A stretch of 64,000 nt of DNA from Bryobacterales bacterium (GCA_963422375.2 OY729428.2:1312001-1376000), one strand, 5' to 3'. Positions 14,626 through 25,048 are shown, numbered from the stretch's first letter. Program-made: numbers and translations. The notes: generated by a model not told the origin, from the sequence alone.

Positions 14626-17600
14626 ATGCCGTTCGGCTGGCTGGCCGGCGTGATCGCCGGCAAGATTCTCGGCTCCGCCGCCGCCGCCACCAAGGCGTTC
14701 GCCATCCTGAAGGGCGTGATCGCCGCGGGCCTGGCGGCGGGCGCGTCCTACGGAGCGGGCCTGGTGATGCGCCTGGTGGCGCGCGACGCCCGCCCCGGCG
14801 GCACGCGGATGGAGGCCCTCGCGGGGGCCAAGTCGACCGTCGCGAGCGAGGTGGTCGCGGCCCGCTGGGTGCTGGGCCGGGCCCGCGTGCCGGGCGTGCT
14901 GGCCTACTTCCGGGCCGAGGGCCGCGCGGCGCACCTGGGGCTGGTCCTGTCCGAGGGCGCCTGCGAGGGCATCGACGGCAAGTGCTGGATCGACGGGCGC
15001 GAGGCGAACCTGGTCGAGGACGCGGGGCGGTCTTACGGCGGGAGGGCGCTGGTGCCGGAGGAGGGCGACCGCTACGAGGGCAGCGTCCGGATCCGCGAGT
15101 ACTTCGCGGCCGACGGCACGCAGGGAGCGGCCATGCGCACGGCCTACCGCGGCGGCGCGCTCAAGTACCGCCAGCCGCTCCCGGACGGCGACGGCTGGAA
15201 GGAGACCGACGCGCCGAGCCGCGAGACGACGCAGGTGCAGCGGGCGCTCTTCACCCCGGACGACGGCGGCCTGAACTCCGCCAACTTCGACTACGACTAC
15301 GCGACGGGCAGCGTCCGATACCGCCGCGACCGGAACTGGGAAAGCGAGTTCGACGCGGACCCGGACGGCGGGGACGGCGACGAGCCCGCGGACGGCAGCG
15401 AGGTCGCCGGCAGCTGGGACTTCGCCGGCGCCTCCTGGACCCAGTGGACCTGGGACCACATGCCCTGGTCCGAGCACCACCGCCTGGACGGCCTGAGCTG
15501 GGTCTACGTGCGGCTGGACCAGCCGCGGCGCGCGGGGAGAGCCGCGGCCGAGGACCGCGTCTTCACGCGGGTGCCCGCCCTCGAATTCCTCGTCAAGGGC
15601 GTCAGGATCGCCTGGCCGGGGCAGCCCGTCCCGGCCTGGACCGACAACGCCGCCGCGATCCGCTACTGGTGGGAGACGGAGCGCCGCGGGCGCGCGCCCG
15701 GCCGGATCGACCGGGGCGAGTTCGACGCGGCCTTCGCCCTCTGCGAGGCGGAGATCGACTGGACCGCCGAGGTCCGCGGGCGGCTGCCCGCCGACTACGC
15801 CGGGTTCACGACGAAGGCGAAGCGCTACGCGGTCGGCGGCGTGATCTCCTCCGAGGACGACGCGAGCGAGGTCGAGGAGCAGCTCGACGCCGCGTGGGCC
15901 GGGGAGGTGGTCGAGTCGGGCGGCCGGCTGCTGTTCCGGCCGGGCGCGGACATGGCCGCGGCCTCGCAGGAGATCGGCGAGGCCGACATCGCGGAGCCGC
16001 CCGCGGCGCGGCCGTGGGCCTCGCTGCAGGAGCGCGTCAACGCGGTCACCTGCGAGATCGCGCAATCCCGCGACCACGGCTGGACGCGCCTGGCGCTGCC
16101 GCTCTTCGAGGACGCCGCGGCGGTCGCGCGCGACGGCGAGCGCCGCGAGGGCGGCATCCGCCTGGCCTTCGTCTCCGACCCCGTCTCGGCGGCCAGGCTG
16201 CAGGCGACGAACCTGCGCCGCGGCCGCGAGAGCCTGCGGCTGGATCTGGCCGTCGCCCCCGGCCCGGACTTCCGGCGGCTGGCGCTGGCCCCGGGCGACC
16301 TGGTGCTGCTGACCTGCTCCGAATTCGGCCTGGCGCGGGCGCGCATGACGGTGGAGCGCTCCGCGATCCGCGAGGACTGGAGCGTGGCGCTGACGCTGCG
16401 CGAGTCGCACCCGGACACCTACGAGGACACGCTGGTGCTGCCGGAGCTGAAGGCCCGCGAGATCGCCGTCCCGGAGCCCTCGCCGGTGCCGGACGTGCGG
16501 GGGCTGGCCCTCGACGAGATCGCGTCCACGGCCCCCGACGGCGCCGTGAGCGTGCGCATGGTCGCGACGTGGGACGAGGCCGGCGCGCCGACCACCGAGG
16601 TGCAGTGGCGCGAGGACGCGGATCCGGCGGGCCCGCCCGAGACGCGCGTGGCCGCCGGGGGGCGGCATTCCTTCCCGGCGACGGCCGGCAAGGCCTACCT
16701 GGTGCGGGCGCGGCACGTCTCGGCGGCCGGCGAGGCCGGCCCGTGGTCCGGCGCGGCGCGGCGCGCGGCCGGCGGCGACCTGACCCCGCCCGGGGCCGTC
16801 GCGGACCTCGCGGTCCTGGCCCTGCCGGGCGGCTTCGAAGCCTCCTGGCGCAACCCGCCCGACGCCGACTGGGGCCTCAACGCCGTCTTCGTCGGCGCGA
16901 CCGACGACCTGGCCGCGGCCTCCCAGGCCGCCTCGGTGGGCGCGGACCGCGCCAGCCTGGGCGGCTACGCGGCGGGCGTCAAGCTCTACGTGTGGGTGCG
17001 GGCCAAGGACCGCAGCGGCAATCTCGGCCCCCCCGCGGGCCCGGCCGAGGTCACGCCCACCTCCCCGGCCGAGGAGTCGGCCAGCATCTTCGCCGGCGCG
17101 GGGCCGCCGACGGACGAGGATCCCGCGGCCGCGAAGGACGGCGACATCTACGTGCAGGCCGACGGCGTCCTGTGGACCCGCGAGGACGGCGCGTGGGCGA
17201 AGACGCCGGTCGACCTGACGGGCGAGGACGGCGCGACGATCCACGTGATCGCCGCGTGGACGCCGGAGGCGCTGGCGGCGGTGCCCGCGCCGCGGGACGG
17301 CGACGTGGCCATCGCCGCGGACGGGGCGTGGGGCGAGCGCGTCGCGGGCGCGTGGCAGCGGCGGGGCGACCTGACGGGCCCGCCGGGAGAGCGCGGCCCG
17401 GCGGTGTTCCAGATCGCCGAGTGGCCGCCCGGCAAGGCGGTCGTGGCCCAGCCCATCGAGGGCGACGTGGCCATCGCCGACGACGGCCAGTGGGGCCGCT
17501 ACGCGGACGGCGCGTGGACGCGGGTGGGCGACCTGACGGGCCGGGACGGCTCGCGCATCCGCCGCGTCGCGGCGTGGGACGCGGCGCGCCTGGCCGCGCT

Positions 17601-24497: not shown

Positions 24498-25048
24498 ACG
24501 GCCCCTGGAGCCTGGTGCCCGGCGCCGTCGACGACTGCGCGGGCCTGCTGCGCGCGCTGCTCGACAGCACGGAGCTGCGCCCCGGCACCGTCAACGGCGA
24601 CGGCTCCGTGCGCCCCGACATCCGCCGCTCCGCCGTCGGCTGGCCCGACCCCGCCCGCCACGCCGCCGAGCTCGCCCGCGTGCGCCGGGCCGTTCTCGCG
24701 GCCAACCGCGAGCTGTGGGGCTTCGATCTCGACGGCGGCGAGGAGTGGCAGCTCACGCACTACACCCATCTCGACGCGGGCGTCTACGAGCGGCACATGG
24801 ACTGCTCGCTGGAGGGCGGGCGGCCGCGCTGCCGCAAGGTCTCCGTCTGCGTCAACCTGTCCGACCCGCGCGACTACGAGGGCGGCTCGCTGCGGCTGGG
24901 GGCCGTGGGCCAGCCCGACCGCGCGGCGCTGCGCCAGCGCGGCGCCGCGCTGGTCTTCCCCAGCTTCGTCGAGCATCGCGTCACGCCCTTGCTGGCCGGG
25001 GAGCGCTACTCCCTCGTCGCCTGGTTCTCCGGGCCGGCCTGGCGCTAG
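24494..25048 (+). CDS. 2OG-Fe(II) dioxygenase (PKHD/prolyl-hydroxylase-like)
   Basis: HMD, RKVSVCVNLSDPRDYEGG, VFPSFVEHRVTP, GERYSLVAW. Confidence 0.9.
   Translation: MNGPWSLVPGAVDDCAGLLRALLDSTELRPGTVNGDGSVRPDIRRSAVGWPDPARHAAELARVRRAVLAANRELWGFDLDGGEEWQLTHYTHLDAGVYERHMDCSLEGGRPRCRKVSVCVNLSDPRDYEGGSLRLGAVGQPDRAALRQRGAALVFPSFVEHRVTPLLAGERYSLVAWFSGPAWR

What the first reader, a model, noticed from the sequence alone, without database searches (positions are those of the whole stretch)
14626..25048. Prophage-encoded collagen production and modification system
Seen: one co-oriented, tightly packed block containing a collagen-bearing tail fibre, a GT25/PLOD-GT/lysyl-hydroxylase fusion, three collagen genes, a small ORF and a second 2OG-Fe(II) dioxygenase. 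Established: animal collagens mature through prolyl hydroxylation, Y-position Lys hydroxylation (PLOD), galactosylation (COLGALT, GT25) and glucosylation (PLOD3). Mimiviruses have related enzymes, whereas bacterial and phage collagens are generally regarded as unmodified in this way. Inference: the phage builds hydroxylated, glycosylated, animal-like collagen fibres on its virion, for stability, adhesion to an animal extracellular matrix or mimicry. I know of no characterised temperate phage with this set-up, but could not search.
Basis: partly seen in the sequence, partly recalled or inferred. Interest (0 to 1): 0.95.

Follow-up and report, generated by a model that had tools for sequence, protein, structure and literature searches.

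The report
Phage cassette for glycosylated collagen fibres
A prophage in a soil Acidobacteriota genome carries, inside its tail genes, one enzyme that fuses the three animal-type activities that hydroxylate and glycosylate collagen lysines, next to lysine-rich collagen fibre genes, and the same pairing recurs in hundreds of ocean phage contigs where it has gone unannotated.

Summary
A 42-kb temperate prophage (three copies in a Bryobacterales genome) encodes, in one tight co-oriented block:
- a J-like tail fibre with collagen segments;
- a 642-aa fusion of a COLGALT1-type GT25 domain, an LH3-type glucosyltransferase domain and an LH-type lysyl hydroxylase domain;
- three short collagen genes;
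- an 87-aa ORF;
- a P4H/PKHD-type 2OG oxygenase.

All three catalytic centres of the fusion are intact and are the invariant columns across 61 diverse relatives. A confident AF2 model (pLDDT 93) matches LH3, COLGALT1 and mimivirus R699/L230 best.

Linkage to collagen is strong: 16 of 17 genome loci, 65 of 80 IMG/VR loci, and the cultured phages S-CAM9 and CRP-6 have GXY runs beside the enzyme. Lys sits almost only at Y, the LH substrate position (1432 at Y against 11 at X). In collagen runs with no enzyme nearby the counts are 214 against 72.

The second oxygenase tracks the proline content of the collagens. The three collagen chains have matched lengths and matched interruptions, which suggests a heterotrimer.

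The animal-matrix or mimicry idea is not supported, because the hosts are soil and marine bacteria. No modification has been shown chemically. I found no paper describing this in phages.

The parts
1..38163 (+). The part of a ~42.3-kb temperate prophage that lies in the window. The whole element is G000 C2:1307816-1350163 and its left end is about 4.2 kb before the window.
   Evidence: Pfam on the ORFs. The limits come from similarity to the two other copies in the genome.
14626..19740 (+). J-like central tail fibre / host-specificity protein, 1704 aa. It has seven ~52-aa repeats (residues 839-1204), collagen segments at residues 1188-1334 and 1397-1538, and a C-terminal globular domain.
   Evidence: PHROGs phrog_5616 and phrog_31 tail fibre J, and Pfam Collagen E 4e-34. 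K at Y 14, K at X 1.
18187..18627 (+). Collagen segment 1 of the tail fibre, 49 GXY triplets.
18814..19239 (+). Collagen segments 2-4 of the tail fibre.
19748..21676 (+). Trifunctional collagen-lysine modifying enzyme, 642 aa, with no signal peptide. Domain order is GT25 (COLGALT1 CGT-like), then PLOD GT (LH3 glucosyltransferase-like), then LH (lysyl hydroxylase-like).
19748..20392 (+). GT25 domain (about residues 1-215), with E93-D94-D95, C70 and D168-E169.
   Evidence: It aligns to COLGALT1 324-537 at E 8e-24. FVFEDDA aligns to LVFEDDL, and DE aligns to D522-E523 (residue roles from PMC12003778 and PMC12987934 passages).
20420..21112 (+). PLOD-type GT domain (about residues 225-455), with W265, K275, D297-x-x-D300, E326, W330, D389-D390-Q391, H444 and N446.
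   Evidence: It aligns to LH3 residues 57-262 (chain positions 34-239) at E 3e-24, and to mimivirus R699 at E 9e-23. Foldseek against 6wfv gives TM 0.81 and rmsd 3.1.
21140..21676 (+). Lysyl-hydroxylase-type 2OG/Fe(II) domain (about residues 465-642), with H573-x-D575, H620/H622 and R632-x-S634.
   Evidence: On its own it hits only LH3 and mimivirus L230 in the PDB: 6 of 6 sequences at E<=0.1. Foldseek against 6ax6 gives TM 0.76 and rmsd 2.5.
21692..22534 (+). Collagen chain A, 280 aa. N-motif IRWRV...FGAP, 68 triplets, C-tail ...[16 protein letters not shown]....
22543..23409 (+). Collagen chain B, 288 aa. 72 triplets, 19 Lys all at Y, C-tail ...[19 protein letters not shown].
23378..24265 (+). 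Collagen chain C, 295 aa from the ATG at 23378, or 289 aa from the ATG at 23396. 74 triplets, 28 Lys all at Y, C-tail ...GGGRNYG....
24234..24497 (+). Small conserved ORF, 87 aa, function unknown.
   Evidence: No Pfam, PHROG, NCBIfam or Atlas hit. tblastn homologs lie at the same place in 4 of 17 loci.
24494..25048 (+). P4H/PKHD-type 2OG-Fe(II) oxygenase, 184 aa, with H101-x-D103, H161 and R171-x-S173. Inferred collagen prolyl hydroxylase.

Best explanation
This is a late-gene tail-module cassette of a temperate siphovirus-type prophage that makes post-translationally modified collagen fibres for the virion.

Proposed sequence of events, all in the host cytoplasm, on unfolded chains, before the triple helix forms:
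1. The C-terminal LH domain of the 642-aa enzyme hydroxylates Lys at the Y position of Gly-X-Lys triplets, using Fe2+, 2-oxoglutarate and O2.
2. The N-terminal GT25 domain (inverting, Mn2+ bound by EDD, catalytic base D168) puts a hexose on the new hydroxyl. By homology this is galactose.
3. The middle PLOD-type GT domain (Mn2+ bound by DxxD and His) adds a second hexose. By homology this is alpha-1,2-glucose.
4. The separate 184-aa oxygenase hydroxylates prolines.

The substrates are the collagen segments of the J-like tail fibre and the three short chains A, B and C. These then trimerise, possibly as an A-B-C heterotrimer, and join the tail tip. The likely benefit is helix stability, hydration and protease shielding of exposed fibres, and perhaps glycan-mediated host recognition.

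Shown here: the genes, domain homology, intact catalytic residues, linkage to collagen genes, and Lys at Y.
Inferred: every chemical step, the identity of the sugars, and the place of the fibres on the virion.
For: 1. Each domain's nearest solved relatives are collagen enzymes.
- The A1 profile hits LH3 at E 5e-38 (GT domain 3e-24, LH domain 1e-10), COLGALT1 at 8e-24, mimivirus R699 at 9e-23 and mimivirus L230 at 3e-6. A bacterial GT25 enzyme scores only 0.0018.
- The C-terminal domain alone hits only LH3 and L230 (6 of 6).
- The AF2 model made with 61 sequences has pLDDT 93.3 and pTM 0.82. Foldseek ranks LH3 first (E 4.5e-26), then the LH3 GT domain 6wfv (TM 0.81), R699, COLGALT1, and L230 LH (TM 0.76).

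2. The catalytic residues are kept.
- In 61 tri-domain relatives of 23-55% identity, the 22 invariant columns include E93, D95 and D168 (GT25), K275, D297, D300, E326 and H444 (PLOD GT), and H573, D575, H620 and H622 (LH). D94, E169, C70, W265, Y299, W330, D389, D390, Q391 and N446 are at 90% or more.
- Position 632 is always K or R.
- Their counterparts in the human enzymes are essential: E435, D437 and C412, D522, E523 and D436/D437, and D190, D191, W145 and E141.

3. The enzyme is linked to collagen genes.
- GXY runs of at least 8 triplets lie beside the enzyme in 16 of 17 genome loci and 65 of 80 IMG/VR loci.
- They also lie in the tail fibre genes next to the homolog in Roseobacter phage CRP-6 and Synechococcus phage S-CAM9.

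4. The collagens carry the substrate signature.
- In enzyme-linked collagens, K at Y against K at X is 1432 : 11 (IMG/VR), 310 : 15 (Acidobacteriota loci plus window) and 48 : 0 (the two isolates). Lys occupies 18-31% of triplets.
- In 5329 triplets of viral collagen runs with no enzyme in the locus it is 214: 72, or 4% of triplets. Fisher p 5e-48 and 5e-230.
- In the window all 49 Lys of chains A, B and C are at Y, while Arg occupies both X and Y. Lys is 0-4% of the non-collagen proteins.

5. The second oxygenase fits a prolyl hydroxylase.
- It has an invariant HxD...H...RxS. Its profile hits PKHD hydroxylases (E 8e-13) and the PBCV-1 and Chlamydomonas P4Hs (E 1e-4).
- Homologs lie in 45 of 71 distinct collagen-bearing enzyme loci. 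Those collagens have a median of 0.37 Pro per triplet against 0.135 without it (Mann-Whitney p 3e-6).

6. The genes are intact in three near-identical prophage copies.
Against: - No chemistry was measured. There is no mass spectrometry and no expression data.
- Sugar specificity cannot be read from sequence. Mimivirus L230 is reported to put glucose, not galactose, on Hyl (PMC9546862 passages).
- In the window's own GT25 domain two acceptor-cleft positions differ from human COLGALT1. There is W-T where human has Y494-W495 (W495A is dead in human), and Q where human has K470. These columns vary across the family: Y47/W11 and W38/N8/L6, and K25/R13/N8/Q6.
- Four IMG/VR loci with 3.9-10 kb of sequence upstream of the enzyme and 10 kb downstream (L157, L167, L172, L174) have the enzyme but no GXY run nearby.
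- Pfam's 2OG hit on the fusion is below the gathering score.
- The counts treat triplets and related loci as independent, so the p-values are overstated.
- The oxygenase resembles PKHD/PiuC-type enzymes more than collagen P4Hs. In the marine loci the proline is at X, not Y.
Confidence: 0.75

Rival explanations
1. Hydroxylase only. The LH domain makes hydroxylysine on the fibres, but one or both GT domains are structural (like the LH3 accessory domain or COLGALT1 GT1) or glycosylate something else, such as host LPS or exopolysaccharide, as bacterial GT25 enzymes do.
For: GT25 is annotated as an LPS-biosynthesis family. The window's GT25 domain departs from the human YW and K470 acceptor residues. 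Non-catalytic GT-like domains exist in both human enzymes (PMC12003778 passages).
Against: The metal-binding and catalytic residues of both GT domains are invariant or at least 90% conserved across 61 relatives. The GT25 domain is far closer to COLGALT1 (E 8e-24) than to a bacterial GT25 galactosyltransferase (E 0.0018). The three domains stay fused in 83 of the 164 proteins classified (14 relatives plus 69 of the 150 listed representatives).
Confidence: 0.12
2. Auxiliary metabolic or host-takeover enzymes. The oxygenases and GTs act on host proteins or small molecules (for example translation factors, as PPHD/Tpa1-type hydroxylases do) and merely sit near tail genes.
For: PHROGs files the matching family phrog_61 under 'moron, auxiliary metabolic gene and host takeover'. 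Cyanophages carry many 2OG oxygenases of unknown role (PMC2938197 passages). Four loci lack nearby collagen.
Against: The position inside the tail-fibre block is conserved in three bacterial phyla's phages. The Lys-at-Y enrichment is specific to enzyme-linked collagens. The LH domain matches only collagen lysyl hydroxylases in the PDB.
Confidence: 0.06
3. One reading: the modified fibres mimic animal collagen, for adhesion to an animal extracellular matrix or for immune mimicry.
For: The enzymes are homologous to the animal pathway.
Against: The host is a Bryobacterales bacterium. The other carriers are Acidobacteriota MAGs, Synechococcus and Roseobacter phages and low-GC viral contigs. No animal-associated carrier was seen.
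Confidence: 0.03
4. A decaying, non-functional relic carried by a defective prophage.
For: Two of the three copies span contig ends, so the copy number could partly be an assembly effect. No RNA evidence was available.
Against: All seven ORFs are open, with a strong coding GC3 signal. The enzyme is identical in score in the three copies. The prophage keeps integrase, repressor and full structural genes. The family shows purifying selection on its catalytic residues.
Confidence: 0.03

Closest known systems
Human LH3/PLOD3 with COLGALT1/GLT25D1 (lysine O-glycosylation complex, PDB 8zgc; 6fxk; 9evj)
   Same: The same three activities are implied: Lys 5-hydroxylation at X-Lys-Gly, Hyl galactosylation by a GT25 CGT-type domain with an EDD metal site and a Asp-Glu base/anchor pair, and Gal-Hyl glucosylation by a DxxD GT-A domain with poly-Asp, gating Trp and His. 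Every one of these residues aligns. The folds match.
   Different: It is one 642-aa cytoplasmic polypeptide instead of two ER-lumen proteins of ~738 and ~622 aa. The domain order is GT25, GT, LH. There is no LH3 accessory domain and no COLGALT1 GT1 domain. The host is bacterial, and the substrates are phage fibre proteins.
Acanthamoeba polyphaga mimivirus collagen system (L230 LH plus Hyl-glucosyltransferase, R699 Gal-Hyl glucosyltransferase, R655 GLT25D-like, L593 P4H, 7-8 collagen genes)
   Same: It is a virus-encoded collagen plus lysyl hydroxylase, glycosyltransferases and prolyl hydroxylase. R699, L230 and R655 are among the best sequence or structure hits. Background comes from PMC9546862 passages.
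   Different: The giant virus of an amoeba spreads the activities over several separate genes across its genome. Here they are fused and lie in a tail-fibre operon of ~40-175 kb tailed phages of bacteria.
Prokaryotic and phage collagen-like proteins (Scl1/2, BclA, E. coli O157 prophage collagen-like tail fibres)
   Same: GXY triple-helix repeats in surface fibres and tail fibres.
   Different: These are described as generally lacking Hyl, Hyp and Hyl-glycosylation (review PMC8968730 passages). BclA is glycosylated by other chemistry. Control viral collagens have 4% Lys at Y against 18-31% here.
Bacterial 2OG dioxygenase plus sulfotransferase neighbourhoods predicted to modify collagen-like proteins (Iyer et al. 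2010, PMC2938197)
   Same: It is an earlier computational prediction that bacterial dioxygenases hydroxylate co-encoded collagen-like or tail-collar proteins.
   Different: The enzyme families differ (beta-hydroxylase / PhyH plus sulfotransferase). There is no PLOD or GT25 fusion and no Lys-at-Y signature. The cyanophage oxygenase arrays were read there as secondary-metabolite enzymes.

Membership tests
Collagen lysyl hydroxylase (LH/PLOD C-terminal domain) | 2-His-1-Asp Fe(II) triad and a basic 2OG-binding residue (LH3 H667, D669, H719, R729; numbering recalled, consistent with the +23 chain offset) | tested here: met
   LHEDIS aligns to PHHDSS, THPH to THYH, and GTRAS to GTRYI. H573, D575, H620 and H622 are invariant in 61 sequences. 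Position 632 is K31/R30.
Collagen lysyl hydroxylase (LH/PLOD C-terminal domain) | Closer to LH than to other 2OG oxygenases, and the same fold | tested here: met
   The domain alone hits only LH3 and L230 in the PDB (6 of 6 at E<=0.1, best 1.3e-13). Foldseek against L230 LH gives TM 0.76-0.77 and rmsd 2.4-2.5, ahead of P4Hs at E 3e-7.
Collagen lysyl hydroxylase (LH/PLOD C-terminal domain) | Hydroxylates Lys in X-Lys-Gly of collagenous sequence | not testable with these tools
   Support is indirect only: Lys is almost exclusively at Y in the linked collagens.
LH3-type Gal-Hyl glucosyltransferase (PF25342 GT_PLOD) | DxxD plus His Mn2+ site (D112, D115, H253; numbering recalled, consistent with the offset) | tested here: met
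   D297, D300 and H444 align and are invariant.
LH3-type Gal-Hyl glucosyltransferase (PF25342 GT_PLOD) | Poly-Asp D190/D191 with Q192, gating W145, E141, K89 and N255 (roles from PMC10342707 passages) | tested here: met
   D389, D390, Q391, W330 and N446 are at 90% or more. E326 and K275 are invariant. Pfam E 6e-12, above the cutoff. TM 0.81 to 6wfv.
COLGALT1/GLT25D1 catalytic (CGT/GT2) domain, CAZy GT25 | EDD Mn2+ motif (E435, D436, D437), uridine-positioning C412, catalytic base D522 and Hyl-anchoring E523 | tested here: met
   E93-D94-D95, C70 and D168-E169 align (offset +27). E93, D95 and D168 are invariant, the others at 90% or more.
COLGALT1/GLT25D1 catalytic (CGT/GT2) domain, CAZy GT25 | Acceptor cleft: YW motif (Y494, W495) and K470 | tested here: not met
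   The window protein has W140-T141 and Q at these columns. Across 61 relatives the columns are Y47/W11, W38/N8/L6 and K25/R13/N8/Q6. So the fold and catalytic core belong to the family, but the acceptor cleft is not strictly COLGALT1-like in this copy.
COLGALT1/GLT25D1 catalytic (CGT/GT2) domain, CAZy GT25 | Lid loop with STDE motif; UDP-galactose specificity | not tested
   The alignments obtained end before the lid loop. Donor specificity needs an assay.
Collagen prolyl 4-hydroxylase (for the 184-aa oxygenase) | HxD...H triad with a basic 2OG residue | tested here: met
   H101, D103, H161, R171 and S173 are invariant in 19 homologs. Pfam 2OG-FeII_Oxy_3 matches 19 of 19.
Collagen prolyl 4-hydroxylase (for the 184-aa oxygenase) | Nearest relatives are collagen P4Hs; acts on Pro in GXY | tested here: inconclusive
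   Best PDB hits are PKHD/PiuC-type hydroxylases (E 8e-13 to 3e-10). The viral and algal P4Hs come only at E 1e-4 to 4e-4. Its presence tracks the Pro content of the linked collagens, which is indirect.
Collagen triple-helix repeat proteins (PF01391) | Long uninterrupted Gly-X-Y runs | tested here: met
   E 4e-34 to 4e-23. There are 68, 72 and 74 triplets in chains A, B and C, and 97 in the fibre.
Temperate tailed prophage | Structural module plus integrase and repressor, with defined ends | tested here: met
   Portal, protease, capsid, TMP, Dit, J-like fibre, S24 repressor and integrase are present. The ends come from comparing the three copies. Induction was not tested.

The most novel reading that the evidence does not exclude
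Tailed bacteriophages, from soil Acidobacteriota prophages to abundant marine cyanophages and roseophages, decorate their tail fibres with animal-style glucosyl-galactosyl-hydroxylysine (and hydroxyproline) collagen made by a single all-in-one enzyme. In the Acidobacteriota lineage the fibre would be a C1q-like A-B-C heterotrimeric collagen encoded by three tandem genes. That would place the metazoan and giant-virus collagen lysine-modification toolkit in the bacterial virosphere, and would supply a compact, bacterium-compatible enzyme for making glycosylated collagen.
Probability: 0.4. Interest if true: 0.9.

Novelty: new variant of a known kind. Interest (0 to 1): 0.8.

Why it matters
Hydroxylysine-linked Glc-Gal is regarded as a hallmark of animal collagens, known outside animals only from mimivirus. 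A 2022 review states that prokaryotic collagens mostly have no such modification.

- **Reach of the pathway.** If the prediction holds, a complete, fused version of the pathway operates in bacterial cytoplasm and is widespread in phages. At least 555 IMG/VR stretches and 7 sequenced phages carry it (6 cultured isolates and one single-cell-derived marine virus record).
- **Annotation.** A whole class of marine '2OG-Fe(II) oxygenase AMGs' would be re-read as virion-maturation enzymes.
- **Phage biology.** It would add a new kind of phage virion glycosylation.
- **Evolution.** It would bear on the origin of the LH3 and COLGALT enzymes.
- **Application.** It would offer one bacterial-compatible gene for producing hydroxylated, glycosylated recombinant collagen. 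The mimivirus papers name that as an unsolved need.
- **Testability.** Cultured phages that carry the cassette already exist.

Tried and rejected
- The first AF2 model, made with 14 sequences, was poor (pLDDT 66, LH domain below 50). It was replaced by the 61-sequence model. Foldseek on the poor model already gave COLGALT1 and LH3 first.
- NCBIfam has no model for the fusion.
- The 87-aa ORF has no Pfam, PHROG or NCBIfam hit and no usable ESM Atlas hit. Its function is left open.
- The search of earlier findings by place and by sequence returned nothing.
- The search for related loci on genome contigs with the diverse alignment A2 failed because no stretch was conserved enough. I used the genome search instead: 1 of 400 other sampled Acidobacteriota genomes has the enzyme.
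- Sequencing runs: 8 runs from 5 studies hold the DNA, and no RNA holder is listed.
- The Luther et al. 2011 paper on L230 is not held. What I say about L230 comes from passages of PMC9546862.
- Complex prediction was not used. Its controls cannot separate an A-B-C heterotrimer from homotrimers, and an enzyme-substrate pair is a poor case for it.
- I considered that oxy184 is a second LH paralog and rejected it. There is only a 54-residue core match to the LH domain (E 1e-4) and no LH3 hit in the PDB.
- I considered that Lys at Y is a general collagen habit and rejected it. The control viral collagens show 3: 1 against 130: 1.

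
Full report
**What is there.** The window is very GC-rich. The tail and collagen part is 77-84% GC, against 67% for the genome. ORF listing and a GC3 frame test give a co-oriented + strand gene series.

Pfam and PHROGs name these genes:

| Window position | Gene |
|---|---|
| 93-1067 | portal |
| 1042-1602 | S78 prohead protease |
| 1646-2860 | major capsid |
| 3992-4747 | SLT-domain protein |
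| 9023-12280 | tape measure |
| 12992-13579 | distal tail protein |
| 13644-14624 | DUF6950-like protein |
| 14626-25048 | the block in question |
| 25447-28838 | lower-GC insert: HATPase_c_3 protein plus C5 cytosine methyltransferase |
| 29529-30185, minus strand | CI-like S24 repressor |
| 31442-32353 | YqaJ |
| 34522-36204 | ParB_N protein |
| 36250-37992 | tyrosine integrase |

Comparison with the rest of the genome puts the element at C2:1307816-1350163, about 42.3 kb. In window terms that is from 4.2 kb before the window to position 38163. Two more copies exist at 95-100% identity. Both of them span contig ends. The host is a Bryobacterales (Acidobacteriota) bacterium: its SelB is 68-76% identical to Bryobacterales MAG records and 42-60% identical in every other listed record.

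- **Tail fibre (1704 aa).** It is a J-like central tail fibre (phrog_5616, phrog_31). It has seven ~52-aa repeats, collagen segments at residues 1188-1334 and 1397-1538, and a C-terminal globular domain.
- **The enzyme (642 aa).** It starts 7 bp after the fibre stop codon.
- **Three collagen genes** of 280, 288 and 295 (or 289) aa.
- **An 87-aa ORF.**
- **A 184-aa 2OG oxygenase.**

All are separated by at most 15 bp or overlap.

**The enzyme.** A profile of 14 close relatives, searched against PDB sequences, splits the protein into three parts.

| Residues | Best match | E-value |
|---|---|---|
| 10-207 | catalytic C-terminal GT domain of human COLGALT1 | 8e-24 |
| 10-207 | a bacterial GT25 enzyme, for comparison | 0.0018 |
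| 235-435 | glucosyltransferase domain of human LH3 | 3e-24 |
| 235-435 | mimivirus R699 | 9e-23 |
| 463-618 | lysyl hydroxylase domain of LH3 | 1e-10 |
| 463-618 | mimivirus L230 | 3e-6 |

The last 191 residues on their own hit nothing in the PDB except LH3 and L230 (6 of 6 sequences).

Residue by residue:
- FVFEDDA aligns with the COLGALT1 EDD manganese motif. GELACF aligns with its Cys412. VPADEY aligns with the catalytic base Asp522 and the Hyl-anchoring Glu523. The roles come from passages of PMC12003778 and PMC12987934.
- LALDGYDT, GERxxWP, DDQ and HANG align with LH3 D112/D115, E141/W145, D190/D191/Q192 and H253/N255. The roles of D190, D191, W145 and E141 come from passages of PMC10342707. 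The D112, D115 and H253 numbering is recalled, and it agrees with the chain offset.
- LHEDIS, THPH and GTRAS align with the LH3 HxD, distal His and 2OG-binding Arg (numbering recalled).

An exhaustive search of 1.84 billion cluster representatives gave 569 hits at E<=1e-3 and 65 at E<=1e-30. I classified 164 proteins: the 150 listed representatives plus the 14. Of these, 83 have the GT25, PLOD-GT, LH order.

In an alignment of 61 of them (23-55% identity to the window protein), the 22 invariant columns include the residues above from all three active sites. Most of the remaining ones are at 90% or more. The 2OG-binding position is always K or R.

The model built on this alignment is confident (pLDDT 93.3, pTM 0.82). 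Its best structural matches are:
- LH3 (E 4.5e-26);
- the isolated LH3 GT domain (TM 0.81, rmsd 3.1);
- R699;
- COLGALT1;
- the L230 hydroxylase domain (TM 0.76, rmsd 2.5).

One reservation concerns the GT25 acceptor cleft. At the human Y494-W495 and K470 positions the window protein has W-T and Q. These columns vary within the family: Y47/W11, W38/N8/L6, and K25/R13/N8/Q6.

- **Bacterial genomes.** 17 loci encode a relative, all in Acidobacteriota MAG records: 15 Bryobacterales, 1 Terriglobia and 1 Acidobacteriota, from 11 MAGs, with up to 4 loci per MAG.
  - Thirteen of the 17 show the same order: distal tail protein, DUF6950, J-like fibre, enzyme.
  - Twelve have a full-length homolog of the 184-aa oxygenase downstream, and one more has a fragment.
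  - Four have a homolog of the 87-aa ORF.
  - GXY runs of at least 8 triplets lie beside the enzyme in 16 of the 17. The exception is a 32-residue fragment match.
- **Rarity in the host phylum.** Only 1 of 400 other sampled genomes has it. That fits a mobile element.
- **Sequenced phages.** 11 of 50,697 records (7 phages) have a full-length homolog of ~25% identity. These are the Synechococcus myophages S-CAM9, S-PRM1 and S-8S53/55/56, Roseobacter phage CRP-6, and a single-cell marine virus. They are annotated hypothetical or 2OG-Fe(II) oxygenase.
  - In CRP-6 and S-CAM9 the gene lies directly after tail fibre genes.
  - Those fibre genes contain GXY runs of 61, 37 and 59 triplets with 16, 10 and 22 Lys at Y and none at X.
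- **IMG/VR.** One degenerate peptide pattern matched 573 stretches, of which 555 encode a relative.
  - Of the best 80 loci, 65 have GXY runs, nearly always on the enzyme's strand.
  - Of the 15 without, 11 have the enzyme within 2.7 kb of the upstream contig end, which is where the fibre gene normally lies.
  - The other 4 (L157, L167, L172, L174) are true exceptions.

**Substrate signature.** Lysyl hydroxylases act on X-Lys-Gly, that is, Lys at the Y position.

I examined 76 loci. None carries the three-domain enzyme. Four have a single-domain hit and were dropped.

Counting identical runs once:

| Set | Unique triplets | K at Y | K at X |
|---|---|---|---|
| IMG/VR, enzyme-linked | 5794 | 1432 | 11 |
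| Acidobacteriota loci plus window | 1749 | 310 | 15 |
| CRP-6 and S-CAM9 | 157 | 48 | 0 |
| IMG/VR collagen runs, no enzyme (control) | 5329 | 214 | 72 |

Fisher tests give p 5e-48 for position and 5e-230 for density. Triplets and related loci are not independent, so these p-values are overstated. The effect sizes stand: 130 : 1 against 3 : 1, and 25% against 4% of triplets.

In the window, chains A, B and C hold 2, 19 and 28 Lys. All are at Y. Arg occurs at both positions. Lys makes up 0-4% of the other prophage proteins.

**The second oxygenase.**
- Nineteen homologs share an invariant H101-x-D103, H161 and R171-x-S173.
- All 19 match Pfam 2OG-FeII_Oxy_3.
- Their profile hits PKHD/PiuC-type hydroxylases best (E 8e-13 to 3e-10), and the PBCV-1 and Chlamydomonas prolyl 4-hydroxylases at about 1e-4.
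- The protein is only marginally similar to the fusion's LH domain.
- Homologs lie next to the enzyme in S-CAM9 (30% identity) and in many marine loci.
- Among 71 distinct collagen-bearing loci, the 45 with a homolog have collagens with a median of 0.37 Pro per triplet. The 26 without have 0.135 (Mann-Whitney p 3e-6, not corrected for relatedness).
- In the Acidobacteriota set the extra Pro is largely at Y. In the marine set it is at X.

A collagen prolyl hydroxylase is therefore the best reading, but membership of the collagen P4H family is inconclusive.

**The three short collagens.** In the related prophages they recur as a trio.
- All three share an N-terminal motif: (I/L)-x-W-(S/T/A)-I, then F-(G/D)-x-P about 20 residues later.
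- Their C-tails are type-specific. Type A ends in an aromatic-acidic Y-D-x-G-Y repeat with a Cys. Type B ends ...G-Y-x-D-G-Y-x-D-A-G-C. Type C ends ...G-G-R-N-Y-G.

Within a locus the three chains have matched lengths, and their last interruption falls at the same place. Between loci these values differ.

| Locus | Triplets before the last break (A / B / C) | Triplets after it |
|---|---|---|
| L004 | 51 / 50 / 50 | 6-8 |
| L006 and L008 | 42 / 41 / 41 | (no common final break) |
| L013 | 63 / 62 / 62 | 5-7 |
| window | about 70 / 70 / 72 | 6 |

This is what chains that fold into one helix in register would show, as in C1q. Three equal-length homotrimers are not excluded. I rate the heterotrimer at about even odds.

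**How it most likely works.** See the best explanation. The order hydroxylation, first hexose, second hexose is taken from the animal pathway. So is the need to act before the helix folds (review passages). Neither is shown here. All carriers live in oxic habitats, which fits O2-dependent enzymes; this is inference. The enzyme has no signal peptide on reading its N-terminus, so it should act in the cytoplasm.

**What is known.**
- Animal LH3 and COLGALT1, and the mimivirus set L230, R699, R655 and L593, are the closest systems.
- A 2022 review states that prokaryotic collagens mostly lack hydroxylation and glycosylation, and names only mimivirus among viruses (passages).
- Iyer et al. 2010 predicted that other bacterial dioxygenase families, together with sulfotransferases, modify collagen-like proteins. 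They read the cyanophage oxygenase arrays as secondary-metabolite enzymes (passages).
- A 2022 virome paper calls the role of viral P4H 'cryptic' (passages).
- The COLGALT1 structure paper notes that BLAST with the catalytic domain also returns bacteria (passage). I did not see its supplementary figures.
- Eight full-text searches found no paper on lysine hydroxylation or Hyl-glycosylation of phage collagen. The library lacks most subscription journals.
- PHROGs already holds a 689-position family, phrog_61 '2OG-Fe(II) oxygenase', filed under auxiliary metabolic genes. It matches the C-terminal part of the enzyme (residues 591-639 to profile positions 580-627) and the 184-aa oxygenase. So the sequences are known, and their reading is what is new.

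**Verdict.** The enzymatic interpretation is well supported by homology, conservation and comparative context. The animal-mimicry idea is not supported.

This is a new variant of a known kind: the animal and mimivirus collagen-lysine pathway, fused into one protein and placed in the tail-fibre operons of tailed phages of at least three bacterial phyla. The chemistry remains to be shown, and cultured phages exist on which to show it.

Noticed in passing
window 21692-24265; L004 11886-13919; L006, L008, L013 and L015 at the equivalent place: The three short collagen genes form a conserved trio. They share an N-terminal motif, have type-specific C-tails (two end in Cys), and have matched triplet counts and interruption positions within each locus. 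This suggests an A-B-C heterotrimer like C1q.
   Followed up: partly
window 25447-28838: A lower-GC insert (about 60% against 75-84%) lies inside the prophage between the collagen cassette and the repressor. It encodes a 763-aa HATPase_c_3 (GHKL ATPase) protein followed, with a 4-bp overlap, by a C5 cytosine DNA methyltransferase. It looks like a defence or restriction-modification-type moron.
   Followed up: no
window 12258-12920, minus strand: A 220-aa ORF lies on the opposite strand between the tape measure and distal tail genes. It has coding GC3 (0.85) and an N-terminus that reads like a signal peptide, and no Pfam hit. The surrounding 11787-13583 has an extra 90-97% identical copy at C1:585154-586950.
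   Followed up: no
window 4990-5062: tRNA-Arg (anticodon CCT) is encoded inside the prophage structural region. ARAGORN also calls an 87-nt tRNA-Gly at 41036-41122 (minus strand) inside a long ORF, which may be spurious.
   Followed up: no
G000 C1 ends, C2:1307816-1350163, C3 ends: There are three 95-100% identical copies of the 42-kb prophage. The C1 and C3 copies both span contig ends, one breaking in the fibre's collagen repeat, so the assembly probably broke at this repeat. Some Bryobacterales MAGs also carry up to four loci.
   Followed up: partly
window 37994 and C2:1307975: A 16-bp direct repeat lies just after the integrase stop and 160 bp inside the left limit of copy similarity. It is a candidate attachment core. 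A truncated AMP-binding enzyme gene starts at 38155, right after the prophage.
   Followed up: no
window 3954-6419: This 2.5-kb head-tail connector region has a 95.6% identical copy elsewhere on the same contig (C2:2438739-2441184). That points to another related element or remnant.
   Followed up: no
window 14626-19740, residues 839-1204: The fibre has seven tandem ~52-aa repeats (G-D-V-A-I-A-D-D-G...W...G-D-L-T-G) before its first collagen segment. Between the collagen segments lies a motif ([19 protein letters not shown]) that is conserved at fibre C-termini in the related loci.
   Followed up: no
L103 (Synechococcus phage S-CAM9) 6680-9683: Two further 2OG-Fe(II) oxygenase genes sit between the 1830-aa collagen-bearing tail fibre gene and the tri-domain enzyme. 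One is 30% identical to the window's 184-aa oxygenase. The fibre's prolines are at X (31 of 59 triplets), not Y.
   Followed up: partly
L157, L167, L172, L174 (IMG/VR, 35% GC): This lineage carries the tri-domain enzyme (29% identity) but has no GXY run within the 3.9-10 kb held upstream or the 10 kb downstream. Its substrate is unknown.
   Followed up: no
window 14000-24000: The tail-fibre and collagen module is 10-17 GC points above the host genome (77-84% against 67%). This is partly, but not only, because of the Gly and Pro codons.
   Followed up: no
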